A stretch of DNA of 64,000 bases, from assembly GCA_964583525.1 (NCBI GenBank), contig CAZOXD010000001.1, positions 47,572 through 111,571 of the forward strand, in the 5' to 3' direction. The position numbers were made by a program, and so were the translations under genes. The DNA comes from an uncultured Pseudomonadota bacterium. GTDB lineage: Bacteria > SAR324 > JACQKK01. The notes beneath the pieces were generated by a model that was not told the DNA's origin, searched no databases, and saw only the letters and a list, made by a program, of their open reading frames with translations. This document shows, in pieces, positions 39,440 through 56,127 of this stretch (within the stretch, counting starts at the first letter, position 1; every line of letters begins with the position of its first letter).

Positions 39440-39566
39440 GATAAATTCGCTTCAGGTGATTTTACGCTTGACATAAATAACCTGAAGTCATTATTCTGTT
39501 CTTCCGTGACGGATCGGGAGTCGTTTTCATTCCCGGTTAATCTTCATACCTACCATTCGTAGAGCC
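39440..39566. promoter_or_regulatory. Divergent switch region with 8-bp inverted repeat cttcaggt...acctgaag (~22 bp apart) overlapping a TTGACA -35 element
   Basis: Read directly; candidate operator for the repressor/Ner. Confidence 0.4.
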
Positions 39567-39809: not shown

Positions 39810-39891
39810 ATCGCAGCGCGGGACACAGGGGCGCGTCTACCCTTCCTGACGCGTCTCACTCGGGAAGCATCACCGATCGCAGGGGGCCGGC

Positions 39892-40923: not shown

Positions 40924-40926
40924 ACC

Positions 40927-41457: not shown

Positions 41458-41460
41458 CCG

Positions 41461-41742: not shown

Positions 41743-42335
41743 GCATCGGCGACGGACGCCACAAGCTGGCCACGCGGGAGGAACGCGAGATTCACGGCGC
41801 GATCCTGCGGGAAACCCGCGCCCTGTGCGAGCGCTGGGCCGCGCGGCGGCTGGCGGATATCGAGGAGGCCGAGGGGATCGCGGTCAACAAGACCGTGGCC
41901 CTGGACGAGCTGGCCGAAGCCCTGGGCATGAGCCGCCGCCAGCTCTCCGCTTACGGTTCTGACGTGCCCATCACCCTCGCCAAGGCCGTGCGGCTCTCCC
42001 AGGTCTCCGGCGATCCGGCCCTGCTGCACCTGTTCGCCCGCTACCTGGGGGCGCTGGCCGTGCGCATTCCCCGCCCGGAAGAGATCGCAGGCCTGGCCGA
42101 AGTCAACGCCGAACTGTTCGCCAACTCGAAGGAGGCCGTCGAGTTCCAGGGCGCGGCCCTGGCCATGGGCGGGGAGGAATACGGCCCGGACGATCACGCC
42201 ATCACCAGCAAGGAGGGCCTGGAGGACATGGAGCAGTCCGTGCGCCTGATCCTGGCGTCTTCCCTGAAAGCCACCGGCAAGGCCGAACTCCCCGCCGCGC
42301 TGCACCTGACCCGATCCAATGGAGGAAACCAATGA
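41739..42335 (+). CDS. HTH-containing phage regulatory protein (hypothetical)
   Basis: GTG start overlapping the previous stop (GTGA); ...KTVALDELAEALGMSRRQLSAYG... HTH. Confidence 0.45.
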   Translation: MSIGDGRHKLATREEREIHGAILRETRALCERWAARRLADIEEAEGIAVNKTVALDELAEALGMSRRQLSAYGSDVPITLAKAVRLSQVSGDPALLHLFARYLGALAVRIPRPEEIAGLAEVNAELFANSKEAVEFQGAALAMGGEEYGPDDHAITSKEGLEDMEQSVRLILASSLKATGKAELPAALHLTRSNGGNQ

Positions 42336-43555: not shown

Positions 43556-43818
43556 GTCCAGAGCGCACATTCGATGAATTGAAGGAATTGAAACACCGCA
43601 ACATGGTGTGGGGATACCTTATTTTGGATGGGAAGCAGCATGCCAGCGTCTGGTGTCATTCCGGGCAGAGGCAGGTGATTGACGATTCGGATATCGGAGC
43701 AGACGGCGCCGCTCATTTTAAATGCAAATGCACATACGACATTGAATGCGGCCTCGAGGGAACGATCCTGCTCCATGGCTGGGATCCCGGGCACATCAAC
43801 GGGGGACGGGCCGCATGA
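43552..43818 (+). CDS. Small hypothetical protein (lower GC)
   Basis: 88 aa by manual translation, MSPERTFDELKELKHRNMVWGYLILDGKQHASVW... Confidence 0.4.
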   Translation: MSPERTFDELKELKHRNMVWGYLILDGKQHASVWCHSGQRQVIDDSDIGADGAAHFKCKCTYDIECGLEGTILLHGWDPGHINGGRAA

Positions 43819-44186
43819 CCGATCAAAAATACATCGGATTTCTCGAATCCAGGAACGCCTGTTTGCACACGACCGTTGTGCGCCTACTGGCTGTCATGGA
43901 GAAAAGCGGAGCTGGCGATATCCATTGGATAAAAACCGGAGAAAGAATTCAGGAAACCGCCGCACAAGGAACCTCTGAAGCCACAGCCGAACGATTTATC
44001 AAGTGTTTTGGTGAGATGTCGGAAGTGACAGATGCCGCAAAGGCGTTTCTAACAACCGGAACGCCGGAGACAAAGAGCGCATTGCAAAAAAAACTGGCGA
44101 TATATGAACGGGGAGAAAACCGCCGCACCCGCAATATTCAGGCCTTGGCTAAGAAAGGCGAACCCTGGTGGGACGCGAAGCCATGA
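43815..44186 (+). CDS. Small hypothetical protein
   Basis: Internal start MTDQKYIGFLESRNA... Confidence 0.4.
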   Translation: MTDQKYIGFLESRNACLHTTVVRLLAVMEKSGAGDIHWIKTGERIQETAAQGTSEATAERFIKCFGEMSEVTDAAKAFLTTGTPETKSALQKKLAIYERGENRRTRNIQALAKKGEPWWDAKP

Positions 44187-45838
44187 CCGACCCTATCCAC
44201 ACCCTCTATCTGGACACCCTGGGCGCGGACAAGGCCGCCCGCAAGGCCGCCGTCGCGGAGACCGCCGCGCGGCTGGGCCTCCAGTCCGACACTGTGCGCA
44301 AGAAGCTGGACAAACTGGGCCGCGCCCGCTCAGAGCCCCGCGCGCGCGCAACCGATCCCGAGTTGGAAGCAGCCGTAAATATCGTGTGGGAATTCAAGCT
44401 GACCCCGGACGGGCCCATCGCCACCGAAGCCGCGCTGCAACTGGCGATCAGCGAGGGCAGGCTGTTCAAGGCCTGGCCGGTGGGTTCCCTCAACGCCGCC
44501 GCCAAGCGGCTCGGCCTGAGCGAACAGGCCGCCTACTGCCGGCGCATGGAAGCTCCCCACGCCAACCGCACCCACCGCGTGGACGCTTCCGGTTCGCGTC
44601 ACTTCCAGGTAGTGGAGGATGCCGGGGACGGGGACTGGCTGCTCCGGGTCTGCCGGGCCGAGCAGCGCAACAAGCGCTGGCGCGGGGAGGATGCCAGCAA
44701 CCTGCTCTGGATCGTGACGGTCATCGACGACTATTCGCGCGTTTTCAACGTGGGCTACCAGGTGGCTCCGGGGGAAAGCGCGGCCATGATCCAACGCTTC
44801 CTGGTGGAAACCTGGCGCGACGCCCAGCCGCGCGGCCTGCCCGAGGTGCTGATCGCGGACAACGGATCGTTCGCCAAGGAGACCTCCTCCAAGGCGCTGC
44901 TGGCCTTCTTCGACATCCAACTGATCACCGGCCAGCCCTACAATTCCCAGCGCAACGGGCGGGTGGAGCGGCCCATCCGCACCATCAAGGAGGGCTTCGA
45001 GCGCCCCATGCTGGCCACCCATGACCTGGGATCGATCGTGCGGCTCTCGCAACTCAAGGAAGAGTTGAAGGTTTTCATCGCAGGAGTGAACGGGAGCCGC
45101 CATCCCATCAGGCGCGACCGCACAAAGCGCGAGGACTGGGAGCGCGGGATGGCCTTCCGAGAGTTGCGCGAGTGCCCCCAGGACGCGCTCCACTACGCCA
45201 CCTGGCGCGAGCAGCGCACCGTCACGGCCGAGGGCGCCGTCCAGCACAAGAACAAGCTGCTGGAAATCGTGGATCTCCCCTACGGTCTGCGCGGCCGCAA
45301 GATTACGCTCTGTTACAACGCCTCCGGAGAAATCATCGCCGAGCACGAGGGCGCGCGCTACGCCGTGCGCGGCTTTGTCCCGGTGACCCTGGGCGGCTAC
45401 GAGAGCCAAGCCCATACCGGGCGCGGCGATCCGCCCTCCAAAGCCGCCGCCGCCAAGGCCGAGGCCCGCCAGAAGACGGGCGTGGGCTTCCATGCGCCGG
45501 AGCGCCAAGCCGCCATCAAAGCGGCCGGCGAGCAGCCCCATGCCCCGGGCGAGCAGGCGCTCCCCGGCGCGGGCGCGCGGGTGATTACACCGCCGCCGCG
45601 CATCCGGGACGCGGTGCAGGTAATATCCGGCAAAACCGATCCCTTCCAGATCGCGTCCGACCGCTACAAAACCGTGGACGAGGCCGTCGCGGCGGTGCAG
45701 GAAATCGTCGGCAAGCCCAGCCACGTCTGGCTCAACAAGGAGCAGCGCCAAACGCTGGAGAAGATTCTGCGCGGCTTCGATCTGGATCGCCGCAAAACCG
45801 CCGCGCTGGCCGATCGACTGCGCCAGCAAAGCGCGTGA
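44183..45838 (+). CDS. Mu-like DDE transposase (MuA/rve-family integrase core)
   Basis: ...WIVTVIDDYSRVFNVGYQVAPGES...VLIADNGSFAKE...GQPYNSQRNGRVERPIRTIK... DDE triad with N-terminal DNA-binding region. Confidence 0.8.
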   Translation: MTDPIHTLYLDTLGADKAARKAAVAETAARLGLQSDTVRKKLDKLGRARSEPRARATDPELEAAVNIVWEFKLTPDGPIATEAALQLAISEGRLFKAWPVGSLNAAAKRLGLSEQAAYCRRMEAPHANRTHRVDASGSRHFQVVEDAGDGDWLLRVCRAEQRNKRWRGEDASNLLWIVTVIDDYSRVFNVGYQVAPGESAAMIQRFLVETWRDAQPRGLPEVLIADNGSFAKETSSKALLAFFDIQLITGQPYNSQRNGRVERPIRTIKEGFERPMLATHDLGSIVRLSQLKEELKVFIAGVNGSRHPIRRDRTKREDWERGMAFRELRECPQDALHYATWREQRTVTAEGAVQHKNKLLEIVDLPYGLRGRKITLCYNASGEIIAEHEGARYAVRGFVPVTLGGYESQAHTGRGDPPSKAAAAKAEARQKTGVGFHAPERQAAIKAAGEQPHAPGEQALPGAGARVITPPPRIRDAVQVISGKTDPFQIASDRYKTVDEAVAAVQEIVGKPSHVWLNKEQRQTLEKILRGFDLDRRKTAALADRLRQQSA

Positions 45839-45850
45839 GAGGGCAGAGAA

Positions 45851-46030
45851 ATGAAACACCTGTTGAAAAAACGGACACCGATTCACATAAAGCATCTCCG
45901 AGCTGCCGCCAAAGCGTTCGAGGAAATGATCGATCTTGGGGAGGAATTCCGGGGATCGGGGACAGACAGTGATCAGCGGTACCGCCTGATGAAAGAGCTC
46001 AGGGAATTCGCGGCTTGGCTTGAGGGATGA
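45851..46030 (+). CDS. Small hypothetical protein (59 aa)
   Basis: Manual ORF MKHLLKKRTPIHIKHLRAAAKAFEEMIDLGEEF...; below the track size cutoff. Confidence 0.35.
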   Translation: MKHLLKKRTPIHIKHLRAAAKAFEEMIDLGEEFRGSGTDSDQRYRLMKELREFAAWLEG

Positions 46031-46050
46031 TTGAACGGAGAGAGCAACCC

Positions 46051-46167
46051 ATGATCTTCACTATCATCGTGCTGGCCGGGTTTCTCGCGGCCGGAATCGT
46101 CCTGGGCTGGCTGGTGAAACACGCCGTCAAAGCCACGGTGGAAATCTTCTCGCAGTTCAACCGCTGA
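46051..46167 (+). CDS. Small membrane peptide (38 aa)
   Basis: MIFTIIVLAGFLAAGIVLGWLVKH...; GGAGAGAG RBS. Confidence 0.35.
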   Translation: MIFTIIVLAGFLAAGIVLGWLVKHAVKATVEIFSQFNR

Positions 46168-46188
46168 AACCAGGGAAAGGAGAAAGCG

Positions 46189-46362
46189 ATGCGCGCATTG
46201 ATCTTGATCGAGGACGACGGCAAGGGCGGGGTCAACCTGGAAATAGGGGTCACCACTATCGACTATGACCCCGAAAGCCCCGCGCTGCTGGTGCACCGCG
46301 AACTGGTGGATCGGGCCTTGGAACTGACATCCAAACCCAAACCGGGAAAGGAGCAGGGATGA
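46189..46362 (+). CDS. Small hypothetical protein (57 aa)
   Basis: MRALILIEDDGKGGVNLEIGVTT...; strong RBS GGAAAGGAGAAAG; ATGA overlap with the next gene. Confidence 0.4.
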   Translation: MRALILIEDDGKGGVNLEIGVTTIDYDPESPALLVHRELVDRALELTSKPKPGKEQG

Positions 46363-46811
46363 GTATTCCAAGCGAACATTTTGAAAATGCTTTTCGCGGC
46401 GGCGGCGGGATCAGGGCCGAATGTGATTTTTGTGGGCGAGTCCATTTTACAACGCTTCCATTCGCAGGGGATTGGGAGGAAGGAGAATTTGAAAGCCTCA
46501 TTGAAAGAGCAGAAAACAACCCCGATCAATACATCGCAGAAGGCCGATACGATTCAATAACATATGGAACCCTGGCGGGGCGCACCTATGTTCTTGATTG
46601 CCCATGCGTCGAGGAAAAGGTGCTCCCTTATGAGAACTTCATTTGGAACTACAGGCACCAGATTCTTTCCTACCACCAAATGAGAACGAAGTCGGAGCGA
46701 GATGAAGCCGAGCGTAACCATGAAGAGGTGAGCGACCAATACAAACCTTGGTGTGCCCCAACAACCCGCCAACAGGAAATAAACAGAGCCAGATCAAGGA
46801 TGCTCTCATGA
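46359..46811 (+). CDS. Cys-containing hypothetical protein (lower GC)
   Basis: 150-aa ORF; CDFCGRVHF...LDCPC. Confidence 0.45.
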   Translation: MSIPSEHFENAFRGGGGIRAECDFCGRVHFTTLPFAGDWEEGEFESLIERAENNPDQYIAEGRYDSITYGTLAGRTYVLDCPCVEEKVLPYENFIWNYRHQILSYHQMRTKSERDEAERNHEEVSDQYKPWCAPTTRQQEINRARSRMLS

Positions 46812-47746
46812 CCCCCACCAAGCCCGAAATGCTGGAGTTCCTGGGGCTGGCCCGGGATCCCTTCGCCAAGCTGCGCGAGGCGGGGGACGTCTGGCCAAGC
46901 GTGACGTTGCGCTCGGCGCGGCACCTGGTGGACTACGCGCTCTCGCATTCCGAAATGGTGGCCATGCTGGGGGGCTTCGGGGTGGGCAAGACCACCCTCC
47001 TCCACGCCGCCCTGGAGTCGGTCGAGCAAGGGCCCGGAGAAACCATCGCCATTCACGTGGCTGGCTCCAAGGACACCCTGCGCATCTCGGCCGTGGTGGA
47101 GGAGATGCTGCGCGGGCTGGGCAACGACCGCCTCCCGCAGAGCGAGACCGCCCGCCGCCGGATGCTGAAAGCGGCGCTGGTGGGCGCCTTCGGCCAAGAC
47201 AAGCGGATCGTGCTGGTGATCGACGAGGCCCACCGCATGAAGGGCATCACGCTGAAAGCGCTCAAGGAACTCCACGAGCAGAGCCGCCACGCCTGGCGCG
47301 AGGCGACCTTCGCCATTCTGCTGGCCGGGCACCGGCAACTGACCGCCCTGGCCCATTTCGAGGCGCGGGACTTCCTGGCGCGGCTGGAGTCCCACAACAT
47401 TCTGCACCTGAGCGCCCTCAGCGCCGGGGAAGCCGCCATGTACATCTGCCACCGGCTGGACGCCGCGGGCGCTCCGCAACTGCTGGAGATGGACACGCTG
47501 GAACTCCTGGCGCGGCGCGGGACGCCGCTGGAGATCAACCGCACCATGTGGCGGATCTTCGAGGCGGCGTACCTGAAGAACGTGAAACCGATCACGCCGG
47601 AGCTGGTGCGGGCCGTGCTGCCCACGCCCCCGGCCCCGCCGGACGCAAGCGCCGGAAACATCGACGACCTATTGAAGGGTCTGAGCGAACCGAACGGAGG
47701 CAGGGATGCCGCAAGCAGCAACATCAGAACCGCCCATGGTGAGTGA
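46808..47746 (+). CDS. MuB-like AAA+ ATPase (transposition target DNA activator), paralog 1
   Basis: Walker A GGFGVGKTT, Walker B VLVIDEAH; conserved N-terminus (MLEFLGL..DPF..L, DYALSHSEMVA). Confidence 0.7.
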   Translation: MTPTKPEMLEFLGLARDPFAKLREAGDVWPSVTLRSARHLVDYALSHSEMVAMLGGFGVGKTTLLHAALESVEQGPGETIAIHVAGSKDTLRISAVVEEMLRGLGNDRLPQSETARRRMLKAALVGAFGQDKRIVLVIDEAHRMKGITLKALKELHEQSRHAWREATFAILLAGHRQLTALAHFEARDFLARLESHNILHLSALSAGEAAMYICHRLDAAGAPQLLEMDTLELLARRGTPLEINRTMWRIFEAAYLKNVKPITPELVRAVLPTPPAPPDASAGNIDDLLKGLSEPNGGRDAASSNIRTAHGE

Positions 47747-47975
47747 GGCGGAATCGATTTTGGACGACGTGCGGGAGCTTCTGGCGATGATCCCGGAGAT
47801 GGAAGCCACGCGGAAGGTATTCGGCAAAAGGCTGGCGGACACCCTGGAGAAGATGCGCGTCTTCAACCACCAACACGCGGCGCACCTCCCGCCCGGCACG
47901 GTGCGGCTGCTGGAAGACATCTACGGCCAGGTGGAATCCTACGCCGGGGTGATCAAGCGCGAGTTGCGCCAATGA
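47706..47975 (+). CDS. Small hypothetical protein
   Basis: 89 aa; GGAGG RBS; overlaps the end of MuB paralog 1. Confidence 0.35.
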   Translation: MPQAATSEPPMVSEAESILDDVRELLAMIPEMEATRKVFGKRLADTLEKMRVFNHQHAAHLPPGTVRLLEDIYGQVESYAGVIKRELRQ

Positions 47976-48219
47976 TTGCCGGAGCGCTCCCGGCCGGGCT
48001 GATTAAACCCCGGCGCCCGCGGGAGGAGCGGCGCGTGTTTGCCAACGGCACGTCATATCCAGCCGCTCCTGGGCGCCGGAATAGGAATCGCCCGCGGGAC
48101 TCATAACCCCGCAAAGGGCCTGCGGTTTCTGTTGATTGCCGGAGGCCTCCGGTTCGACTCCGGGGCCCGGGCGGGAGCGCACTTTTTCCAACGCTGGATG
48201 AGCAACGAGGAGACACCTC

Positions 48220-49245
48220 ATGAACCCACTAATGCCGGAAATCCTGGAGCACTTCGGACTGGAGCGCAACCCGTTCGGGAAGCTGGCCGGTGATGGGGAA
48301 TTCTACGCCTCGCCGGAATTCCGCAGAGCCTACGCCACGGTGGACTACGCGCTCTCGCATTCCGAAATGGTGGCCATCGTGGGGGACGTGGGCTCGGGCA
48401 AGTCCGAGGCCATGGTGGCCGTGAAGGAGCATCTCAAGGCGCGGCCCGAAGCCCCGGTGAACTTCATCGAGGTGCTGCACCCGGACAAGGGGACGATGAA
48501 GATCGGCTCGGTGCTCGAAGCCTTCATCCAGATGCTGGAGATCGCGCGGCCCGGGCAATCCCAGCAGCGGCGGGCCTGGCACGTCAAGTTCGCAATCCAG
48601 GAGCGCTGGCGCCAGGGCGAGCGCTTCATTCTGATCATCGACGAGGCGCACCGGCTCAGCGGGCCGTTCCTGAAATCGCTCAAGGAGTTGCACGAGCAGA
48701 CCCGCTTCGGCCACATGGCAGCCCTGATCGGGATCGTGCTGCTGGGGCACGAGAGCCTGCTGAGCAATTACCAAAAGGTGGCGTCGGACGTGTACCAGCG
48801 CCTGGACGCCGGGCACGTCTGCACGATGGGGAGCATGACCCCGCTGGAAATCGATGAATACATCGCGCATCGGGTTGCGGCGGTCAACGGGAACGGCCTG
48901 TTCGACGGCGAGGCCCGCCGCGCGGTGGGGCGGCTGGCGTCATCGCCGTTGGGCGCGAACCGCATCTGCGCCAAGCTGCTGGCCACGGCCTACACGCGCG
49001 GCCAGGACGCCGTGACCCTGGAGGAAGTCTACGCCGCCTACGACCGCCGCGCTTTGGCCGACCTGCTGGGGCTGAGCGCTCCGGCCATCGCCGGGCGGGC
49101 CGGGATCGGCCGCAGCACGGTGCACGACGTGTTCGATGGGCGCGGCAAGGGGAGCGCCGCCAAGGTGGATGCCGTGTTGCGTGAGGCCATGAGCGCGGCC
49201 GGGCAGCAGGAAGCGGATCGGCAATCAGAAGCGAAGGAGGCGTGA
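48220..49245 (+). CDS. MuB-like AAA+ ATPase, paralog 2
   Basis: Walker A GDVGSGKSE, Walker B ILIIDEAH; same conserved N-terminal motifs as paralog 1 (ILEHFGLERNPF, DYALSHSEMVA). Confidence 0.7.
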   Translation: MNPLMPEILEHFGLERNPFGKLAGDGEFYASPEFRRAYATVDYALSHSEMVAIVGDVGSGKSEAMVAVKEHLKARPEAPVNFIEVLHPDKGTMKIGSVLEAFIQMLEIARPGQSQQRRAWHVKFAIQERWRQGERFILIIDEAHRLSGPFLKSLKELHEQTRFGHMAALIGIVLLGHESLLSNYQKVASDVYQRLDAGHVCTMGSMTPLEIDEYIAHRVAAVNGNGLFDGEARRAVGRLASSPLGANRICAKLLATAYTRGQDAVTLEEVYAAYDRRALADLLGLSAPAIAGRAGIGRSTVHDVFDGRGKGSAAKVDAVLREAMSAAGQQEADRQSEAKEA

Positions 49246-49246
49246 G

Positions 49247-49654
49247 ATGGATGCCGGCGAAATTTTGTTGCTGCTGCGGCATTGCAAATTGGCGTTCGAC
49301 CGAGGCTGGGAGGATCTCTGCGCCAACGGGCTGTCGATCCGTGAATCGCACACGCTCCTGCTCGTTGAGAAGGATCCCGGAATGCGGGTGGGACAAATCC
49401 GGGATGCGATCGACGTCCACAAGAACCACGCAACGCGTATCGTCAACACCCTGGAGGCGTCGGGGCTGGTGCGGAGGGAAAGAGAAAACTCGCGACATTG
49501 CCGGGTTCTTATCACTCCTGCCGGGCGGAGCAAGGTCAAGACGATCCGGGAAAACCTGAACCGTTTGGCCTCGTATTACTGGGGCGATCTGCCGGCCGCG
49601 GATCTGGAAGCGATGGAGCGGGTCGTCAACCATCTGCTGGAGCGCAGCCGATGA
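49247..49654 (+). CDS. MarR-family transcriptional regulator
   Basis: 135 aa with winged-helix region (ESHTLLLVEKDPGMRVGQIRDAIDVHKNHATRIVNTLEASGLV). Confidence 0.6.
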   Translation: MDAGEILLLLRHCKLAFDRGWEDLCANGLSIRESHTLLLVEKDPGMRVGQIRDAIDVHKNHATRIVNTLEASGLVRRERENSRHCRVLITPAGRSKVKTIRENLNRLASYYWGDLPAADLEAMERVVNHLLERSR

Positions 49655-50148
49655 AGCCCGGAGATCCCATCGGAAAGCAGAAGATCAAGCTGCTGCACGT
49701 GCTGTTCGCCAAGTTCGACCCGGACGCCGTGGAGGCCATCCGGGACGGCATCGCCGAGGTTACCGGGGACACCTCCACCCTTTCCCTCAACGAGGCGCAG
49801 GCCTGGGAAGTCATCAACGGACTTTGCCGCGAGTTGCGCCAGAACAATCCCGCGCCGATCTGCGTGGTCTGGTGCGAGGGCTACACCATGGGGCGGCTGC
49901 CCAGGGGCGGCATCGATTGGGAGACGCGGATTCCCAGCCAGGCGCAGATCTGGGGGATTCACAAGCTGATGCGCGGCGCCGGAGTGCTGGACGGCCAGGC
50001 CTTCCTGGCGGCGCGGTTCCCGAAGATCGTCCCGGACGGAGTGATCCGCACCGCGCGGGAGGCGTGGCAGGTCTCCAAAAGCCTGCGGGCGATGGGAGCC
50101 AACCGAACTGAACCGCGCCAGGGAGGCGCGGCCGCAATGGGAGCCTGA
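49651..50148 (+). CDS. GemA-like (Mu gp16/DUF1018) regulatory protein
   Basis: Internal start MKPGDPIGKQKIKLLHVLFAKF...; family placement approximate. Confidence 0.45.
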   Translation: MKPGDPIGKQKIKLLHVLFAKFDPDAVEAIRDGIAEVTGDTSTLSLNEAQAWEVINGLCRELRQNNPAPICVVWCEGYTMGRLPRGGIDWETRIPSQAQIWGIHKLMRGAGVLDGQAFLAARFPKIVPDGVIRTAREAWQVSKSLRAMGANRTEPRQGGAAAMGA

Positions 50149-50456
50149 TGGAAAATAAGCGCAAGGAAGCGCGGCGAACCGTGACCGTGCAGGTGGCCGC
50201 GGACATGCTTCACGCATCGGAGGATACCGTGCGGCGGCTGGTCAAGGCCGATCAGATCGAGGCCTACCGGCGCGGCAAGCGGATCATCCTGCTGTATTGG
50301 GATTCGGTGGAAGCGTTCATCGAATCCGAGAAGTCCATCGGCCCTTACGATCACGAGCTGCGCGGCGACAAGGCCGAGGCCCGGCGCCGCGAAATCCGCA
50401 CCCGGCGCGCCGAGCTGGAAGCGCGGCAACTGGGACTTTTGGGGGACGAGGCATGA
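50148..50456 (+). CDS. Excisionase-type HTH DNA-binding protein (at the position of Mu Mor)
   Basis: HTH TVQVAADMLHASEDTVRRLVKADQIEAYRRGKRI. Confidence 0.45.
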   Translation: MENKRKEARRTVTVQVAADMLHASEDTVRRLVKADQIEAYRRGKRIILLYWDSVEAFIESEKSIGPYDHELRGDKAEARRREIRTRRAELEARQLGLLGDEA

Positions 50457-50833
50457 CGGAAGCTGCGTCCATCGAGATTTGCACGAGATGCCCGCTGCCA
50501 GAATGCGACGAGGAAAGCGCGGTATGCCCCTTCTACGGCAACGACGGGGTTGCACAACATCCTAATGAACGGAAGCGGAAGCAAAACAGCGAGTACTTGC
50601 GCAGGCGTCGGGCCAATGACCCGGCCTTCCGGGAACGGAGGCGGAAGCAAAACAGCGAGTACGTGCGCAGGCGCTACGCTGAAGACCTGGCCTTCCGGGA
50701 ACGGAGGCGGAAGCAAAACAGCGAGTACATGCGCAGGCGCTACGCTGAAGACATGGCTTTCCGGGAACGTCATCGAGAGTACTGCCGGGATTACCGGCGC
50801 AGGCGCCGGGCCGCCGCGAAGGAGAAGGCATGA
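50453..50833 (+). CDS. Small protein with N-terminal Cys4 zinc finger and three 22-aa basic tandem repeats (RRRKQNSEYxRRRYAEDxAFRE)
   Basis: Manual start at ATG 50453; the repeats are exact at the DNA level with 66-bp period. Confidence 0.5.
   Translation: MTEAASIEICTRCPLPECDEESAVCPFYGNDGVAQHPNERKRKQNSEYLRRRRANDPAFRERRRKQNSEYVRRRYAEDLAFRERRRKQNSEYMRRRYAEDMAFRERHREYCRDYRRRRRAAAKEKA
50571..50768. repeat. 3 x 66-bp tandem repeat (coding)
   Basis: ggaRgcggaagcaaaacagcgagtac... repeated at 50571, 50637, 50703; coordinates +/-2. Confidence 0.6.
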
Positions 50834-51150
50834 ACGGCTTCTGCCACACCTGCGGCTACACGCTGCGCAAGGTGGCCAACGGCTCGCTGGAGTGGTGCAC
50901 GTTTTGCGGAAAGGTCGCCCCGGCGTTCCCCTTCGACCCCGACGAGGAAGAGGTGAAGGAAGTGCGCAGGGAATGGGAAAAACAGGGCGGAAAGATCGTC
51001 CGCCTCCCCTACGACGGGGACTGGATTCCGGATGTGGCGGTGGAAGCCACCGCCGATACGATCTTCGCCACCCTGCTGGAAGCGAGGCAGGTGGTTTATC
51101 TGTATCAGGGCCGGAAGAAGCTGAACCTGAAAACCAGGAGGAAGCCATGA
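50830..51150 (+). CDS. Zinc-ribbon small protein
   Basis: MNGFCHTCGY...WCTFCGK; 106 aa. Confidence 0.5.
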   Translation: MNGFCHTCGYTLRKVANGSLEWCTFCGKVAPAFPFDPDEEEVKEVRREWEKQGGKIVRLPYDGDWIPDVAVEATADTIFATLLEARQVVYLYQGRKKLNLKTRRKP

Positions 51151-51323
51151 ACTGGGAAGGAATCGCGCTGGTGATGGGCTGCCTGGCCGCACTGGCGGCA
51201 TGGAAAGCCTGGAAGGCCGGCAAGGAACTGCGGGCCGAGCGGGAGCGGATGGCCCGCAACCTTCAACCAACAATCGACCGCCAGGGCACCGTGCCCTGGG
51301 GCAACGACGAGGTGGCGAACTAA
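51147..51323 (+). CDS. Small membrane protein (58 aa)
   Basis: MNWEGIALVMGCLAALAAWKAWKAG...; AGGAGG RBS. Confidence 0.4.
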   Translation: MNWEGIALVMGCLAALAAWKAWKAGKELRAERERMARNLQPTIDRQGTVPWGNDEVAN

Positions 51324-51532
51324 TTGGTGAGCCAGTCCCCGAAAATCGGGCTTATTGCTGCAAAAGCCGAAACCTCCTGCTCCGCGTTTGGAACATGGAG
51401 CGGGGTGTAGGTCTCGTGGCGCGTGTGCGGCTGCTCCGCAATCACCTCATGCCTCTGGTGTTCGCCCGAAGAAGCGGCAGCCAATAGCGCGAGAACTACT
51501 ATTGTAGTGATGGTTTTTTTGTCGAGAAACAT
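51320..51532 (-). CDS. Putative moron: small secreted/membrane protein in an AT-rich islet, opposite strand
   Basis: 70 aa with N-terminal hydrophobic segment TITTIVVLALLAAASSG; the islet 51330-51650 is markedly AT-rich relative to its surroundings. Confidence 0.35.
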   Translation of the reverse strand: MFLDKKTITTIVVLALLAAASSGEHQRHEVIAEQPHTRHETYTPLHVPNAEQEVSAFAAISPIFGDWLTN

Positions 51533-51652
51533 AAGCCTTCCGTGGCTAGAGGTGAATTCATTTTCACTGCAATAAGGGTCTCAAACAACTATTTTTTTGT
51601 CAACGCCGGAGTGCCGGTGATGGAGCAGTAAACCCCAACCAAGGATGATGCG

Positions 51653-52660
51653 ATGAACGCCATGGAAGGCTTGAAGCAAAATCCATCGCGGCTGCTGGCC
51701 GAGCGGGCAGCGGAGAAAATGCAGGAGCTGGGTCTCTCCTACAACGAGGCCGCTGAATATGTGCTGATGACCAACCCGGGGCTAGCGAAGCGCTACCAAG
51801 AGTTCACGCTTGAAGGGCCACCGCCACCGCCTGATTGTCCCATCGATCACCATCTTTCCCGGGCGGCCAACAACTACCGGCCGGCCGGATTCATCGCGGA
51901 CAGGATTTTCCCCACGGCCCCTTGCAGGGAAGAAGACGGGGAGATGTACCACGCCATGGCTGACGTGACGCTGGAAGGAAGGGGCAGCGCCAATCCGTGT
52001 TTCATTCAGCAATTCGAGGAAGGGCGGACACACAGGACGCTGGACTCGCTCTACCTGGATTGGGAACAGCGGATGGGGAGGATGTTGCTCGCTCCCGAGA
52101 GCAGGATTCCCGTGCGGACGCCGTTCTATCCCTGGAGCATTTATGCCGAGGATACGCCCCTCGATGATATTTACGAGGCGATGGCCGAAGTGGAAAACGC
52201 CACCGGAAAGGAAGCCAACCGGATCCTGTTTTCCGGCACGGCCTGGCGGCACTTCCGGCGCAATCAGAAGGTGATCGACAAAGCCACCAATCCTCACGTG
52301 AGCGGGGGCGGTTTGTATCCATCGACCCACCAGATAGAAGCCCTGCTGGGGCTGCAGGTGCTGGTGGGGAACGCTTGGTACAACGCCGCCGAGGAAGCCA
52401 TGCCTTTGAACCTGACTCAAGTCTGGGGCGCGGGAGTGCTGGTGTACCGGGCCGCGGAACGGAGCAACATTCAGGAACCGTCCTTGGGCTGGAATCTGCG
52501 CTGGACGCCGCCCGGAATGAGCGGGCCGTGGGTGGTGAAGCGTATGCCTTACGACACGCGGCGGCATCTTTCGGAGATCCTTGTAGCCTGCCGGGGCGGG
52601 GAGATGCTGAGCAAGCCGGCGCTGGGCTGCCTGATTCCCAACGTAGTGGAGGCGCCATGA
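51653..52660 (+). CDS. Second major-capsid-like paralog (same family as 25576..26538) with a ~50-aa N-terminal extension, located in the early arm
   Basis: Shares motifs with the late-arm capsid gene (ANNYRPAGFIADRIFP, CFIQQFEEGR, WRHFRRNQKVIDKATNPHVSGGGLYPS, MPYDTRRH). Confidence 0.6.
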   Translation: MNAMEGLKQNPSRLLAERAAEKMQELGLSYNEAAEYVLMTNPGLAKRYQEFTLEGPPPPPDCPIDHHLSRAANNYRPAGFIADRIFPTAPCREEDGEMYHAMADVTLEGRGSANPCFIQQFEEGRTHRTLDSLYLDWEQRMGRMLLAPESRIPVRTPFYPWSIYAEDTPLDDIYEAMAEVENATGKEANRILFSGTAWRHFRRNQKVIDKATNPHVSGGGLYPSTHQIEALLGLQVLVGNAWYNAAEEAMPLNLTQVWGAGVLVYRAAERSNIQEPSLGWNLRWTPPGMSGPWVVKRMPYDTRRHLSEILVACRGGEMLSKPALGCLIPNVVEAP

Positions 52661-53034
52661 AAACCCTATCGATTCAACAGCCGTGGGCGTGGGCGATCCT
52701 CCATGCGGGCAAGGACGTGGAAAACCGCAGATGGAGAACCACCTACCGCGGGCCGCTGCTGATTCACGCGGGGAAGTCGTTTGACCTGGACGGATTTGGT
52801 GAATTGGTGCATTTGCGCCCCGATTCACACATCCCTCCCTCCAGCCACTTCCCCCGGAGCGGCATCGTGGGGCGGGTAGAGTTGGTGGACATCGTTCACG
52901 TGGACACACTGCCCAGCAACCCCTGGGCGTTCGGGCCGTGGTGCTGGCTGTTGAAGCATCCCCAGCCACTGCCCCTCAAGCTCTGCAAGGGGCAGTTGGT
53001 GTTGTTCGAGATCGACTACGAGGCCCTGCCATGA
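52657..53034 (+). CDS. ASCH-domain protein
   Basis: MKTLSIQQPWAWAILHAGKDVENRRW... typical ASCH N-terminus; ATGA overlap with the previous gene. Confidence 0.6.
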   Translation: MKTLSIQQPWAWAILHAGKDVENRRWRTTYRGPLLIHAGKSFDLDGFGELVHLRPDSHIPPSSHFPRSGIVGRVELVDIVHVDTLPSNPWAFGPWCWLLKHPQPLPLKLCKGQLVLFEIDYEALP

Positions 53035-53882
53035 ACCCCATCCCCGACAACGTGTATTTCCACTGCGTGGCGCTGAGCACGCCGAAGATGGCGGTGTCCC
53101 TCTGCCGCGCCAACCGGGCCAAGCCGGAGGGGTTGAAGGTGAAGGGAGCCTACATCGAAGGCGGGGTTCCAAAGCCCATGGCCTGCCGGATTTGCACCCT
53201 CTTCGGCGACCTGGAAGCGGGGCATATCCCCACCATGACTCTGGATGAAGCGAAGCGGGACGTGAAGGCGCAGCCTCCGGAGCCGGTGCAGGCAGCGCCC
53301 CCGGTGGAGCGCCCGCTGGTCAAATCACCGGAAGGCCGGGTGCATGAAGCCGATCTTGAACCCAAACAACCACCCAAGGAGCAGCCCATGGAAGGCGAAA
53401 AGAAGATCAGCAAGGCCCAGCAGATCCGGGACTGGTTGGGCGAACACGGCCCGGCGGCCTGCGCCGAGGTAGCCGACGCGCTGGGAATGGAGAAGAAAAA
53501 CACGGCGGCCCAACTATCGGGGATGATTGCCCATGGATTGGTGGAGAAATCCATCGGAGAGGACAACATCAATCTCTACTCCCTGGCAGACGGAAACCAG
53601 GCTCCACCGGCGCCGGAGAAGGAGGAACCCGAACAGAGCAACGTCCTGCCGCTGCGGCCTCTGGACGCGCCGGCGCCGGAAAAGCCGGGGCAACCGGTGA
53701 AGCAGATCCACCGCTCCCTGCCGGAAGAGTTGGGGCTGAGCCTGGAATGCGGGCTGCGTGATTCCCTGGACGACCTGCGCAGACATCTGGCCTGGGAGAA
53801 CGACGGGTTGGGACTGGCGTTGCTGAAAAAACACGAGATCAGCGGCGAAGTCCTGAAACTATTCCTGGAGAGGCGGCGATGA
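53031..53882 (+). CDS. Hypothetical protein with central winged-helix-like region (position of Mu late activator C)
   Basis: 283 aa; ...ISKAQQIRDWLGEHGPAACAEVADALGMEKKNTAAQLSGMIAHGLVEK... Confidence 0.4.
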   Translation: MNPIPDNVYFHCVALSTPKMAVSLCRANRAKPEGLKVKGAYIEGGVPKPMACRICTLFGDLEAGHIPTMTLDEAKRDVKAQPPEPVQAAPPVERPLVKSPEGRVHEADLEPKQPPKEQPMEGEKKISKAQQIRDWLGEHGPAACAEVADALGMEKKNTAAQLSGMIAHGLVEKSIGEDNINLYSLADGNQAPPAPEKEEPEQSNVLPLRPLDAPAPEKPGQPVKQIHRSLPEELGLSLECGLRDSLDDLRRHLAWENDGLGLALLKKHEISGEVLKLFLERRR

Positions 53883-54394
53883 AGATGCCCGAATTTCCCC
53901 CCTGGCAATGGCTGGCCTGGTTTCTCGCGGGGCTGGGCATTGCGCTGGCGGGAGCGGCGTTTCAAGCCCGGGCGCACACCCCGCAGCCGGTGAAACCGGC
54001 GCAGGTACGCGAGGCGGCGTGGGAGTTCGAGGTGCCGCTGGAGATGCTGCTGGCCGTGTGGGAGGAGGAATGCCAGTACCGCCCCACCTGCCCGCGCGGC
54101 CCGGCCGGAGAGTGGGGGCCGTTCCAGATCATGCGCATCGCCGCGGTAGATGCGGGCTGCGCCTGGGAATGGCGCGGCGGGCCGGGCAACGCCCGCTGCG
54201 CCGCCAAAATCCTGGCCCGGGCCTGGCAGCGCTGCGCCTGGCGGCGGCGGGGGGCATTCTCTCGCTACAATCTGCCCGCGGCCCGCTGCCGCGCCACGGC
54301 CTACGCCTGGCGCGTCGAGCAGCGCATGATAGCCCTGCAACGCCAGGCCGCGCACAACCGGGAAATCGAACTGCTGGAAGGGAGGGGAGGGTGA
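53879..54394 (+). CDS. SLT-domain lytic transglycosylase (Mu-lys-like lysozyme) with N-terminal membrane anchor
   Basis: ...EFEVPLEMLLAVWEEECQYRP...GEWGPFQIMRIA... SLT-like catalytic region. Confidence 0.5.
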   Translation: MKMPEFPPWQWLAWFLAGLGIALAGAAFQARAHTPQPVKPAQVREAAWEFEVPLEMLLAVWEEECQYRPTCPRGPAGEWGPFQIMRIAAVDAGCAWEWRGGPGNARCAAKILARAWQRCAWRRRGAFSRYNLPAARCRATAYAWRVEQRMIALQRQAAHNREIELLEGRGG

Positions 54395-54702
54395 TGGGCG
54401 AATTTAACGATGTCGTGAAGGCGGTCACGGACTGGGGAGCAAAGACCTTCGGGGATCACCGGAGGTCAAAGGTTCCTGGCATTCTGAAGCACCTGGAGGA
54501 GGAAATTGAGGAACTGCTCGAGGATCCTGACAGCGCTGAAGAGCAGGCGGACTGCTTGATGCTGATATTCCAGTTGTCCCGCGCCACAGGAGTTGATCTG
54601 GAGAAGGCGGTGCTCGATAAACTGGAAATCAACAAACGCCGGAAATGGGCGCGTATTCCGGGCGTCGGATACAGTAAGCACGTTGAGGAAGGGAGGGGAT
54701 GA
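54394..54702 (+). CDS. MazG-like nucleoside triphosphate pyrophosphohydrolase
   Basis: ~102 aa; ...FGDHRRSKVPGILKHLEEEIEELLEDPDSAEEQADCLMLIFQL... MazG EExxE-type helix pair. Confidence 0.5.
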   Translation: MGEFNDVVKAVTDWGAKTFGDHRRSKVPGILKHLEEEIEELLEDPDSAEEQADCLMLIFQLSRATGVDLEKAVLDKLEINKRRKWARIPGVGYSKHVEEGRG

Positions 54703-55232
54703 TGGAACAACAATCTTTATTGCCGGATGATCCCCCAGAAATAACGGGCCGAGCTTATTTCAGCGATTGCGGCCAATACCGCTATATGCTGACTCGGGAT
54801 TGGGCTCATGAAAAAGGAACAGCGGTTTTTATCATGCTGAATCCGAGCACCGCCGATGAAAAAGAGGACGATCCCACCATTCGGCGGTGCATTGGATTCG
54901 CAAAGCGGTGGGGGTACGGGCGGATCGAAGTTGTAAATCTATTCGCCTGGAGGGCCACAAATCCCGCTGATTTAAAGAAAGCACTCGACCCGATTGGAGT
55001 GAAAAACGATGCTCATATATTCGATGCCTGCGACTTTACCGGGCCTGTGATTGGCGGAATCGTGATAGCGGCTTGGGGGGCGCATGGCGGCTGGAATAAT
55101 CGGGATAACCAGGTTTTGGGAATGCTGGCGCAGCATGACTTCCCTGTTCATTATTTAACCCTAACCAAAGACGGGAAGCCGCGGCACCCGCTCTATCTCA
55201 AAAACGATCTCACCCCAATCCCATGGATCTGA
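54699..55232 (+). CDS. DUF1643-family protein
   Basis: ...YRYMLTRDW......VFIMLNPSTADEKEDDPTIRRCIGFAKRWGYGRIEVVNLFAWRATNP... family-typical motifs; lower GC. Confidence 0.55.
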   Translation: MMEQQSLLPDDPPEITGRAYFSDCGQYRYMLTRDWAHEKGTAVFIMLNPSTADEKEDDPTIRRCIGFAKRWGYGRIEVVNLFAWRATNPADLKKALDPIGVKNDAHIFDACDFTGPVIGGIVIAAWGAHGGWNNRDNQVLGMLAQHDFPVHYLTLTKDGKPRHPLYLKNDLTPIPWI

Positions 55233-55233
55233 C

Positions 55234-56127
55234 GTGACCGAGAACACCTCCATCGGTTGGACGGATCACACCTTCAACGCTTGGTTGGGCTGCACCCGCT
55301 TTGGCCCCGGCTGCCATAATTGCTACGCGGAGAAATGGGCCAAGCGCTCGGGCTTGGTCACCTGGGGTAAAGGCCAGCCGCGCCGCCTGACCACGGATGC
55401 CAACTGGGCCATGCCGCACCGGTGGAATGCGCGGGCGCAGGACAACGGCCGGCCGGAGTGGGTCTTCTGCGGGAGCCTGATGGATTGGGCGGATCGGGAA
55501 GTCCCGGACGCCTGGCGCACACGCCTCTTCGCGCTGATCCGGGGGACGCCCTGGCTGCGCTGGCAACTGCTCAGCAAGCGCGTGGAGGAGATCGCGCGTT
55601 GCCTGCCGGAGGACTGGGGACGCGGCTACCCGAACGTGGCCCTGGGCATGACGGCTGTCAATAACGACGAGTTGGATAGGGATGCCTGGCGGTTCCTGAA
55701 GATACCGGTGCTCTGGCACTTCCTCTCCTACGAGCCGGGCTTGGAGGGGGTGGATCTGCGGCGCTGGCTGCTTTGTTTTTGCTGCCTGGACAGGTTGAAA
55801 TATCGAGGGCCTGATTGGGTCTGCACCAAGTGCGGGCACACCGATCAGAACGTGGGCTGCGGTATATTCGACCAAGTTATCATCGGCGGGGAGAGCGGAG
55901 GCGGGCGTAAGGCGCGGGCCTTCGATCCGGACTGGGCGCGGCGGGCAGTGGCCGATTGCCGGGATGCGGGCGTGAAGGTGTACGTCAAGCAGATGGGCTC
56001 GGTGTGGGCGCGGGAAAACAAGGCGGAGAACCGCAAGGGCGAAGACCCCGCCGAATGGCCGGATGACCTTCGCGTTCAGGAAAGACTGGAGGACGCGAGC
56101 CGAACTGCCTTAACAGCGGGCTCGTAG
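55234..56127 (+). CDS. Phage Gp37/Gp68-family protein (DUF5131)
   Basis: N-terminal IGWTDHTFNAWLGCTRFGPGCHNCYAEKWAKR matches the family signature; GTG start. Confidence 0.65.
   Translation: MTENTSIGWTDHTFNAWLGCTRFGPGCHNCYAEKWAKRSGLVTWGKGQPRRLTTDANWAMPHRWNARAQDNGRPEWVFCGSLMDWADREVPDAWRTRLFALIRGTPWLRWQLLSKRVEEIARCLPEDWGRGYPNVALGMTAVNNDELDRDAWRFLKIPVLWHFLSYEPGLEGVDLRRWLLCFCCLDRLKYRGPDWVCTKCGHTDQNVGCGIFDQVIIGGESGGGRKARAFDPDWARRAVADCRDAGVKVYVKQMGSVWARENKAENRKGEDPAEWPDDLRVQERLEDASRTALTAGS

What the first reader, a model, noticed from the sequence alone, without database searches (positions are those of the whole stretch)
51653..52660. Second major-capsid-like gene, placed in the early arm
The prophage carries two ~45%-identical members of the same capsid-like family. 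One (25576..26538) sits in the canonical position after protease/scaffold and DUF2190. The other (51653..52660) sits alone in the early arm between the regulatory genes and the lysozyme. It has an extra ~50-aa N-terminal segment and is preceded by an AT-rich islet. It could be a captured capsid gene from another phage, a decoy or scaffold, or an encapsulin-like HK97-fold shell protein.
Basis: seen in the sequence. Interest (0 to 1): 0.6.

Follow-up and report, generated by a model that had tools for sequence, protein, structure and literature searches.

The report
Loop-less capsid paralog fused to scaffold tail
The second "capsid" gene is an intact, probably functional offshoot of the major capsid protein that has lost the loop needed to build a shell and gained the capsid-binding tail of the head protease/scaffold; relatives sit among the early genes of several unrelated phages, so it most likely tampers with capsid assembly instead of building a capsid.

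Summary
ORF 51653..52660 (+, 335 aa) is a full-length HK97-fold homolog of the resident major capsid protein (MCP, 25576..26538): 40% identity, E 2e-75, AF2 pLDDT 92.

- It lacks about 40-48 residues that form the E-loop.
- Residues 9-54 of its N-terminal extension are homologous to the extreme C-terminal module ("tail") of the prohead protease/scaffold (26942..28270).

Sixteen 50%-identity clusters share the E-loop deletion. In an NJ tree they form one fast-evolving clade nested in canonical MCPs (bootstrap 93/100). The tail sits at the N-terminus, in place of the E-loop, or at the C-terminus, or is absent. In one case it lies on a MazG-like protein translationally coupled upstream.

Wherever context is informative, the gene lies in early or accessory arms. 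One carrier phage has an unrelated HK97/S78 head. One pair gives dN/dS of 0.21.

Best reading (about 0.4): a non-lattice-forming mimic of both partners of the MCP-scaffold interaction, used to interfere with capsid assembly, probably of competing phages. The function is inferred, not shown. I found no description of such a family.

The parts
51653..52660 (+). Copy 2: 335-aa E-loop-truncated MCP paralog with a fused scaffold tail. An AAGGA Shine-Dalgarno sequence lies 8-9 nt upstream. Its stop codon overlaps the start of the next gene (ATGA).
   Evidence: AF2 pLDDT 91.8, pTM 0.88; HK97-fold MCPs are the top fold matches
51677..51814 (+). Tail module (residues 9-54; predicted helices 11-26, 30-40, 42-54). 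Homolog of the C-terminal module of the protease/scaffold.
   Evidence: 39% identity, E 8e-8 to residues 391-434 of the 442-aa protease/scaffold; tail HMM E 5e-24
51815..51841 (+). Pro-rich linker (EGPPPPPDC) between tail and body.
   Evidence: pLDDT dips to about 75
51908..51970 (+). Stub hairpin (residues about 86-106) that replaces the roughly 58-residue E-loop region of canonical MCPs.
   Evidence: alignment gap; secondary-structure order: N-arm, hairpin, spine helix
51480..51652 (.). AT-rich islet upstream of copy 2 (45% GC). No convincing sigma-70 promoter on the plus strand and no Rfam match.
52657..56127 (+). Tightly overlapping genes downstream of copy 2: ASCH (52657..53034), wHTH protein (53028..53882), a 171-aa ORF (53879..54394), MazG-like dATP/dGTP pyrophosphohydrolase (54394..54702), DUF1643 (54702..55232) and DUF5131 (55234..56127).
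   Evidence: Homologous or similar wHTH genes and DUF5131 recur next to relatives of copy 2.
26942..28270 (-). Resident prohead protease/scaffold (442 aa). Its C-terminal tail module is encoded at 26963..27100.
   Evidence: phrog_976, 1.3e-43
26538..26939 (-). 133-aa DUF2190-like head protein between the protease/scaffold and the MCP.
   Evidence: phrog_673; 52-78% identical in 12 canonical loci held at that call; 37% in L008
25576..26538 (-). Copy 1: canonical 320-aa MCP. Its E-loop region (residues about 36-92) is encoded at 26263..26433.
   Evidence: homolog of PDB 3bjq

Best explanation
Copy 2 is a functional, exapted derivative of a major capsid protein. It has lost the elements that knit subunits into a lattice: the E-loop is deleted, and the N-arm tip, the loop after the spine helix and the C-terminus are no longer conserved. 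It keeps the HK97 core and the conserved N-arm motif. It also carries the C-terminal module that, in every canonical head module of this family, ends the protease/scaffold protein.

Inferred mechanism: copy 2 presents both halves of the MCP-scaffold interaction but cannot propagate a shell. It therefore engages MCP and scaffold/protease molecules of capsids of this family in dead-end complexes and acts as a dominant-negative 'poison subunit'. Because it is encoded among early or accessory genes, including in a phage whose own head is of an unrelated type, the most likely targets are competing phages or prophages with this capsid type. The resident MCP and resident tail are among the most diverged from it, which may limit self-poisoning.

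Shown: the anatomy, the homology, the clade, the genomic position and purifying selection. Inferred: tail-MCP binding, inability to assemble, interference, and the target.
For: 1. Full-fold homology with an E-loop deletion.
2. The N-extension matches the protease/scaffold C-tail. In all 14 canonical loci with the protease gene in view, that module is the last 2-6 residues short of the C-terminus of the gene upstream of the DUF2190-like gene and the MCP.
3. Sixteen E-loop-less clusters form one long-branched clade, bootstrap 93/100. Mean identity is 47% within the clade against 76% among canonical MCPs.
4. The tail occurs at three different positions (N-terminal, replacing the E-loop, C-terminal) or on the translationally coupled upstream MazG-like gene. 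It also occurs on other small early proteins, including a coiled-coil, scaffold-like 362-aa protein and a protein with two tandem tails.
5. Retained canonical positions cluster in the N-arm motif, the spine helix and the A-domain. Lost positions cluster in elements that make inter-capsomer contacts in HK97-fold capsids. The mapping to contacts rests on general knowledge of the fold.
6. The gene sits in early or accessory arms wherever the contig shows enough context (window and six relatives); the two shortest contigs are uninformative.
7. One carrier phage has a Terminase_3 / PF04860 portal / S78 protease / PF05065 MCP head and no tail module.
8. dN/dS is 0.21 between P0050 and P0053.
9. Variant tails stay within canonical tail sequence space while the bodies diverge faster.
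10. Precedents exist: the MCP homolog Ccm redirects helper capsids (PMC8569155), CpmB shares the helper scaffold's C-terminus (PMC5644958), and prophage defences block virion assembly (PMC10884400, PMC11364771).
Against: - There are no experimental data.
- Binding of the tail to MCP is assumed by analogy with other scaffolds and was not tested.
- I could not inspect AF2 coordinates or PAE, so cis docking of the tail is unverified.
- The window's own phage has a capsid of the targeted family, which raises a self-poisoning problem.
- No promoter was found that would give expression in the lysogen.
- A MazG-like enzyme carrying the tail next to a tail-less variant fits a recruitment-platform model at least as well.
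- The sample is small and metagenomic.
- Clade monophyly in the NJ tree could be inflated by long-branch attraction.
- PADLOC has no match.
Confidence: 0.4

Rival explanations
1. Tail-receptor platform, or proto-encapsulin. The E-loop-less body is kept because it binds the tail module. It forms capsomer-like oligomers or a small compartment that recruits tail-tagged early proteins (a MazG-like enzyme, Zn-ribbon/coiled-coil proteins). In fused forms the tail acts as a built-in scaffold.
For: - In L023 the MazG-like protein carrying the tail is directly upstream of a tail-less variant, with a GGAGG Shine-Dalgarno sequence and an ATGA overlap. This is the cargo-then-shell order seen in encapsulin operons.
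- L001 carries a second tail-bearing protein and a DUF2190-like homolog in the same arm.
- The system exists in a phage with an unrelated capsid, so it may be self-contained.
- Encapsulins appear among the fold matches.
Against: - The E-loop is truncated and conservation is lost at other lattice elements.
- The tail is inserted at the E-loop position in P0016, which is hard to reconcile with an interior cargo site in a closed shell.
- There is no encapsulin Pfam hit.
- In the window no separate tail-tagged cargo exists; the window holds only two tail hits.
- The fast evolution is typical of conflict genes.
Confidence: 0.15
2. Cis-locked soluble MCP mimic used as a decoy or sponge. The tail occupies the body's scaffold site in cis and the E-loop deletion prevents assembly. 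The result is a monomer that titrates a host immune sensor or another factor that recognises capsid protein.
For: - The AF2 model is confident over the tail as well as the body (pLDDT 96-97 for residues 11-50, pTM 0.88).
- The variable tail position with long linkers is compatible with intramolecular binding.
- The gene is expressed in an early context.
- MCPs are known immune triggers, for example for CapRel (PMC9712102).
Against: - At least one carrier phage has an unrelated capsid, so it would not need a decoy of this MCP type.
- A mimic that binds a sensor would be expected to trigger it.
- Tail-less members exist.
Confidence: 0.13
3. Component or regulator of the phage's own capsid, such as a specialised vertex or portal-proximal subunit, or a timer of assembly, in the manner of T4 gp24.
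For: - The window's phage has a matching head type.
- The core motifs shared with the MCP are conserved.
- Fold matches include T4-type vertex proteins at low rank.
Against: - The gene is always outside head modules.
- It is present in a phage with an unrelated HK97/S78 head.
- It is absent from the ±10-kb flanks of 11 canonical loci.
- The lattice-forming elements are lost.
Confidence: 0.1
4. Decaying remnant of a second head module: the protease 3' end fused to an MCP by deletions, with no function.
For: - The N-tail arrangement could arise from a single deletion that removes the DUF2190-like gene and most of the protease gene.
- GC3 is lower than in copy 1 (0.76 against 0.87).
- An AT-rich islet and a reverse-strand ORF lie upstream.
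Against: - The 335-codon ORF is intact, has a Shine-Dalgarno sequence and is translationally coupled to the next gene.
- The AF2 model is high-confidence.
- Sixteen clusters share the deletion, in several phage backbones.
- dN/dS is 0.21.
- The same two features recur with three different tail positions.
Confidence: 0.05

Closest known systems
Ccm of SaPIbov5 (a satellite-encoded homolog of the helper phage capsid protein)
   Same: Both are HK97-fold homologs of an MCP that are encoded outside a normal head module and act on another element's capsid assembly (PMC8569155).
   Different: Ccm keeps its N-arm and E-loop, forms the pentons of small capsids and belongs to a satellite without its own capsid genes. 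Copy 2 lacks the E-loop, carries a scaffold tail and sits in complete (pro)phages.
CpmB of SaPI1 (an alternative scaffold that shares the helper scaffold's C-terminal capsid-binding segment)
   Same: Both reuse the C-terminal MCP-binding segment of a scaffold on a different protein (PMC5644958). The 362-aa coiled-coil protein in L001 and the double-tail protein P0173 look like this too.
   Different: CpmB is a small helical dimer. Here the tail is fused to an MCP-derived body.
HK97 gp5 delta domain and other MCPs with a fused scaffold
   Same: A scaffold element and an MCP are joined in one polypeptide.
   Different: Delta domains are full scaffolds on assembly-competent MCPs in head modules, and they are removed by the protease. 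Here only the 46-aa terminal module is present, at variable positions, on a body lacking the E-loop, in early arms.
Encapsulin shell proteins with C-terminal cargo-targeting peptides
   Same: Both have an HK97 fold outside a virion context. A portable peptide module is found on neighbouring enzymes, and in L023 the gene order is cargo then shell.
   Different: Encapsulins keep an E-loop and form closed shells in cellular genomes. There is no sequence membership, the tail is a 46-aa three-helix module, and the context is phage early genes.
Prophage-encoded assembly-blocking defences (Tab, Tai)
   Same: The proposed role is the same: blocking virion assembly of a competing phage (PMC10884400, PMC11364771).
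   Different: Those systems act on tails and are not structural-protein homologs. There is no sequence relation.

Membership tests
Functional major capsid protein of the PHROG 1005 / lambda gpE-like HK97-fold family | HK97 fold (N-arm, spine helix/P-domain, A-domain) and sequence membership | tested here: met
   PHROG 1005 E 1.3e-21. AF2 pLDDT 91.8. Top Foldseek hits are 3bjq, lambda gpE and other MCPs. There is no Pfam PF03864 hit.
Functional major capsid protein of the PHROG 1005 / lambda gpE-like HK97-fold family | Extended E-loop hairpin between the N-arm and the spine helix | tested here: not met
   Copy 1 residues about 36-83 have no counterpart in copy 2, where a roughly 18-residue stub remains. 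The E-loop assignment rests on topological position.
Functional major capsid protein of the PHROG 1005 / lambda gpE-like HK97-fold family | Encoded in the head module after the portal, protease/scaffold and DUF2190-like genes | tested here: not met
   Copy 2 is in the early arm, 25 kb from the head module. Relatives with informative context are likewise in early or accessory arms. The canonical order is seen in L008-L019 and L030-L032.
Functional major capsid protein of the PHROG 1005 / lambda gpE-like HK97-fold family | Retention of residues that are near-invariant in canonical members | tested here: inconclusive
   Of 188 such positions, 70 are kept in at least 80% of variants and 49 are lost. 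The losses cluster in the E-loop, the N-tip, loop 137-146 and the C-terminus.
Encapsulin shell protein | Sequence membership (encapsulin Pfam families) and a cellular, non-viral context | tested here: not met
   No Pfam or NCBIfam hit. The gene lies inside a prophage.
Encapsulin shell protein | Self-assembly into a closed shell | not testable with these tools
   No multimer prediction or experiment was available. E-loop truncation argues against it.
Encapsulin shell protein | Adjacent cargo gene bearing a targeting peptide | tested here: inconclusive
   No such gene exists in the window. In L023 a MazG-like protein with the tail is translationally coupled to a tail-less variant.
Satellite capsid-redirecting MCP homolog (Ccm-like) | Encoded by a satellite that lacks its own capsid genes and depends on a helper | tested here: not met
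   The window's element has a complete head module. L033 has terminase, portal, protease and MCP genes.
Scaffold C-terminal tail module of this head type | 46-aa module matching the consensus NPSxxLAxLAxxKMxELNLSYxEAAEYVLRTxPxLARAYRxFTL | tested here: met
   Tail HMM E 5e-24 for copy 2 residues 9-54. BLASTP to the resident protease tail gives E 8e-8.
Scaffold C-terminal tail module of this head type | Binds the major capsid protein | not testable with these tools
   This is inferred from the invariant C-terminal position on the protease/scaffold, and from P22, 80-alpha and other scaffolds (general knowledge; PMC5644958).
Pseudogene / prophage remnant | Disrupted frame or neutral evolution | tested here: not met
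   The ORF is intact with a Shine-Dalgarno sequence. dN/dS is 0.21 in the P0050/P0053 pair. That pair is not the window gene itself.

The most novel reading that the evidence does not exclude
Phages carry a self-contained, capsid-derived 'receptor plus address-tag' system. An E-loop-less MCP body binds a portable 46-aa scaffold-tail module that can be moved onto enzymes (a MazG-like protein) and other early proteins. This would be a phage-borne intermediate between viral capsids and encapsulin-type cargo loading, or a modular toolkit for delivering proteins into, or sabotaging, other phages' procapsids.
Probability: 0.15. Interest if true: 0.85.

Novelty: new variant of a known kind. Interest (0 to 1): 0.66.

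Why it matters
If the inferred role is right, this would be a case of a complete temperate phage, not a satellite, redeploying a disabled copy of a capsid protein welded to a scaffold tail as an early-expressed agent against capsid assembly. It would add capsid mimicry to phage-phage competition.

It would also give a natural, compact probe of the MCP-scaffold interface: a 46-aa module plus its presumed receptor. The permuted tail positions and the tail-tagged neighbouring enzymes make the binding hypothesis directly testable. They also bear on how encapsulin-style cargo targeting could evolve from scaffold-capsid contacts.

For annotation, such genes should not be called 'major capsid protein', and they should not be used to infer a second head module.

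Tried and rejected
- IMG/VR scan with copy 2 alone found nothing. With alignment A1 it found one distant canonical module.
- The GTDB genome scan found 11 loci, all canonical MCPs with an E-loop.
- The JGI metagenome scan with the full tail alignment failed because no stretch was conserved enough. With a narrower alignment it gave three loci, all canonical.
- The homolog search with the 49-aa tail profile returned only two tiny fragments. The tool appears not to return long proteins for short queries, so it could not survey what else the tail is fused to.
- The sigma-70 promoter/terminator scan and Rfam found nothing convincing upstream of copy 2.
- Pfam, NCBIfam and PADLOC gave no family for copy 2.
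- A PDB sequence search with the tail profile gave only a chance TetR match.
- The listing of cluster members gave no names or organism.
- Recent duplication of copy 1 was considered and rejected. Copy 2 is 40-42% identical to copy 1 but about 50% identical to other canonical MCPs, and it groups with the E-loop-less clade.
- Pseudogene status was rejected (see the rival explanations).
- The literature searches found no description of E-loop-less MCP paralogs in early regions. The library is incomplete, so absence is not proof.
Full report
**1. Observation**

The window holds a prophage of about 41 kb.

- Its structural arm is on the minus strand. It carries an endolysin (37210..37785), small terminase (35640..36110), large terminase (33880..35427), a portal/MuF fusion (28390..30777) and a protease/scaffold (26942..28270). 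A 133-aa DUF2190-like protein (26538..26939) and the MCP 'copy 1' (25576..26538) follow.
- Its early arm is on the plus strand. It carries an rve transposase (44168..45838), two MuB-like AAA ATPases, and MarR and HTH_17 genes.
- Host genes (OmpA and others) begin near 56.4 kb.

ORF 51653..52660 ('copy 2', 335 aa) lies in the early arm.

- An AT-rich stretch precedes it: 51480..51652 is 45% GC against 61-64% in the flanks. A 70-codon ORF on the reverse strand also lies upstream.
- It has an AAGGA Shine-Dalgarno sequence, and its stop overlaps the start of an ASCH gene.
- BLASTP against copy 1 gives 40% identity, E 2e-75, over essentially the whole MCP.
- Both proteins hit PHROG 1005 'major head protein'.
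- An AF2 model built with 62 sequences is confident (pLDDT 91.8, pTM 0.88). Its best fold matches are HK97-fold capsid proteins: PDB 3bjq (E 4e-15), lambda gpE and many phage MCPs.

**2.

(a) Copy 2 has no counterpart of copy 1 residues about 36-83. In copy 1 this segment lies between the N-arm strand and the spine helix, and it is the low-confidence region of its model. That is the position of the E-loop in the HK97 fold; the assignment rests on topology. Copy 2 keeps only a short hairpin there (residues 88-104) before its spine helix (residues 115-146).

(b) Copy 2 residues 9-54 are homologous to residues 391-434 of the 442-aa resident protease/scaffold, which is that protein's extreme C-terminus (39% identity, E 8e-8).

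- I built an HMM of this 46-aa 'tail' and searched all held loci in six frames.
- In every canonical locus where the protease gene is in view, the module ends the ORF upstream of the DUF2190-like gene and the MCP. Only 2-6 residues follow it.
- The window has exactly two hits: the protease and copy 2.
- The consensus is NPSxxLAxLAxxKMxELNLSYxEAAEYVLRTxPxLARAYRxFTL. AF2 predicts three helices for it.
- By analogy with other scaffolds and protease/scaffold fusions (general knowledge; PMC5644958 for 80-alpha/CpmB), a conserved C-terminal module of this kind is the capsid-protein-binding element. This is inferred, not tested.

**3. Copy 2 belongs to a family**

- Most hits are canonical 320-321-aa MCPs.
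- Sixteen clusters lack the E-loop.
- Their tails fall into four arrangements:
  - N-terminal: copy 2, P0002, P0003, P0063, P0050, P0051, P0053.
  - Inserted exactly where the E-loop was: P0016.
  - C-terminal, after a Ser/Thr/Pro linker: P0004, P0005.
  - Absent: P0057, P0060, P0061, P0064, P0065, P0066.

An NJ tree of 77 bodies was built with the E-loop and tail columns removed.

- All E-loop-less proteins form one clade nested within canonical MCPs (bootstrap 93/100).
- Their branches are long. Mean identity is 47% within the clade, against 76% among canonical MCPs.
- Long-branch attraction could inflate this monophyly. P0004 is still 81% identical in its body and 89% identical in its tail to one canonical module (L009). 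Repeated origin is therefore not excluded.
- Either history implies selection for 'E-loop loss plus tail'.

Other evidence of selection and constraint:

- dN/dS between P0050 and P0053 is 0.21.
- Variant tails are as close to canonical tails (0.42-0.66) as canonical tails are to one another (0.57). Variant bodies have diverged more than expected.
- Of 188 positions that are at least 90% conserved in canonical MCPs, 70 are kept in at least 80% of variants. These lie in the N-arm motif IDxHLSxxAxxYRPxGFIAD, the spine helix and the A-domain.
- Forty-nine positions are lost: the E-loop, the extreme N-terminus, the loop after the spine helix (copy 1 residues 137-146) and the C-terminus.
- In HK97-fold capsids the lost elements are those that make inter-capsomer contacts (general knowledge).

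**4. Genomic context**

Wherever the contig shows enough context, the variant is outside head modules and inside early or accessory operons:

- Window: after the transposition and regulatory genes. It heads an overlapping gene string of copy 2, ASCH, wHTH, a 171-aa ORF, MazG-like, DUF1643 and DUF5131.
- L001/L002 (P0050): replication initiator, IstB, ERF, SSB, variant, wHTH, RusA, methylase, SLT, then DUF5131.
- L021 (P0053): Rad52, SSB, variant, then a wHTH gene. A large terminase and a P22-type portal lie further downstream.
- L003-L005 (P0016): SNF2 helicase, DUF7307, variant, then a primase and methylases.
- L020/L033 (P0061): Rad52, two ORFs, variant, one ORF, DUF5131.
- L023-L026 (P0060): DUF488, MazG-like, variant, one ORF, DUF5131.
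- L029 (P0003): a wHTH homolog of window gene 53028..53882 (E about 1e-32), then the variant.
- L027 (P0004) and L028 (P0002) are short contigs. The neighbours there are small unannotated ORFs with no match to any held locus or window gene, so they say little.

I fetched the rest of the P0061 contig through its terminase. That phage builds its head from Terminase_3, a PF04860 portal, an S78 protease and a 418-aa PF05065 HK97-type MCP. It has no tail module, and its MCP shows no significant similarity to the variant. The family is therefore not tied to the carrier's own capsid type.

None of the 11 canonical loci from genomes has a variant or a second tail within ±10 kb.

**5. The tail is portable**

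- In L023-L026 the 235-aa MazG-like protein immediately upstream of the tail-less variant ends with the tail module (HMM E 3.5e-21). A GGAGG Shine-Dalgarno sequence and an ATGA overlap couple the two genes. This sequence is seen in nine contigs.
- In L001 a 362-aa early protein has Cys-rich repeats, a coiled coil and a C-terminal tail. It has no other similarity to the protease/scaffold.
- L001 also has a 129-aa homolog of the DUF2190-like head protein (60% identity) in the same arm.
- P0173 (151 aa) is a Zn-ribbon protein with two tandem tail-like modules.

**6. Interpretation**

What is shown:

- A conserved, selected, fast-evolving clade of MCP derivatives lacks the E-loop.
- These derivatives are usually joined to, or accompanied by, the protease/scaffold C-terminal module.
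- They are encoded among the early or accessory genes of several phage backbones.

What is inferred:

- The tail binds the conserved N-arm or inner face of MCPs of this family.
- The body cannot extend a lattice.

The reading I favour (about 0.4) is an assembly-interfering mimic. It would present both partners of the MCP-scaffold contact and trap MCP or scaffold of capsids of this type, most plausibly those of competing phages or prophages. This fits five points:

- carriage by a phage with an unrelated head;
- patchy distribution;
- rapid evolution;
- scaffold-like proteins bearing the tail;
- the known precedents (Ccm, CpmB, Tab, Tai).

In the window, the resident tail is the least similar of the 17 other tails aligned to copy 2's tail (35%). 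The resident MCP is the least similar canonical MCP aligned to copy 2 (42%). This could limit self-poisoning, or it could merely reflect phylogeny.

Rivals, in order of weight:

- A tail-receptor platform or proto-encapsulin (0.15). It is supported by the coupled MazG-like gene and variant pair.
- A cis-locked soluble decoy (0.13).
- A role in the phage's own capsid (0.10).
- A dead remnant (0.05).
- About 0.17 is left for something not considered.

**7. Comparison with known systems**

- It is not a functional MCP by the family's own criteria: the E-loop and the head-module position both fail.
- It is not an encapsulin by sequence or context.
- It is not a Ccm-type satellite protein. It is encoded in complete phages, and Ccm keeps its E-loop (PMC8569155).
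- It resembles CpmB only in reusing a scaffold C-terminus.
- I found no description of E-loop-less MCP paralogs with permuted scaffold tails in phage early regions. The library is incomplete.
- I rate it a new variant of a known kind (capsid-protein mimicry for assembly control), with a modest chance of being something more novel.

**8. Caveats**

- All relatives are metagenomic, and many come from short contigs.
- The host of the window's element is unknown.
- AF2 coordinates and PAE could not be inspected.
- dN/dS was measured on relatives, not on the window gene.
- The tree is distance-based.
- No expression data exist.

Noticed in passing
window 21684..24767 (-): A 1027-aa glycosyltransferase/methyltransferase-like giant ORF lies just downstream of the MCP region. 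Homologs (36-41% identity over about 1000 aa) occupy the same position in related head modules (L008, L014, L015, L016, L032; partial in L012). It is therefore a conserved part of this head module and not a one-off insertion.
   Followed up: partly
window 50567..50769: A 66-bp tandem repeat of 3.1 copies (90% matches) lies in a gap between called genes. It is in frame with ORF 50297..50833, where it encodes a repeated basic peptide (RERRRKQNSEY.RRR.A.D.AF). It could be an uncalled gene or a set of DNA repeats for a regulator or the transposase.
   Followed up: no
window 51320..51532 (-): A 70-aa ORF with a hydrophobic, signal-peptide-like N-terminus runs against the early operon, inside or next to the AT-rich islet upstream of copy 2. 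The source annotation calls it as a gene. The only sigma-70-like site in the region faces it (51525..51498, minus strand). It looks like a small moron.
   Followed up: no
window 38660..56127, and locus L020/L033: The prophage combines Mu-like transposition genes (an rve transposase and two MuB-like AAA_22 genes) with divergently oriented late (minus) and early (plus) arms around a repressor/sie-like pair at 38660..39439. This is unlike the collinear layout of Mu. L033 shows the same divergent layout with a different head type.
   Followed up: partly
window 55234..56127 (+); also L001 14541..15512, L020 11638..12675, L023 2453..3457: A DUF5131 (Gp37/Gp68) gene recurs a few genes downstream of the variant in four contexts. 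It matches the PADLOC candidate-defence models PDC-M41B and PDC-M30B (E about 1e-28 to 1e-29).
   Followed up: no
window 53028..53882 (+); L029 23..1030; L001 11011..11565; L021 6930..7736: A Cys-containing protein with a winged-helix domain sits next to or near the variant in the window and L029; these two are clear homologs and share an '(A/G)EHGP' motif (E about 1e-32). L001's neighbour shares the motif but gave no significant match to either, and its similarity to L021's wHTH neighbour is only weak (E 8e-5). It may be a regulator linked to the variant.
   Followed up: partly
locus L030 600..1037: In one short JGI contig the ORF that ends with the tail module and precedes the DUF2190-like gene has an N-terminal part unlike the usual protease/coiled-coil scaffold. 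This is possibly another tail-bearing protein in the canonical position.
   Followed up: no
An SLT-domain gene occupies a comparable position in L001 but shows no BLAST similarity to it.
   Followed up: partly
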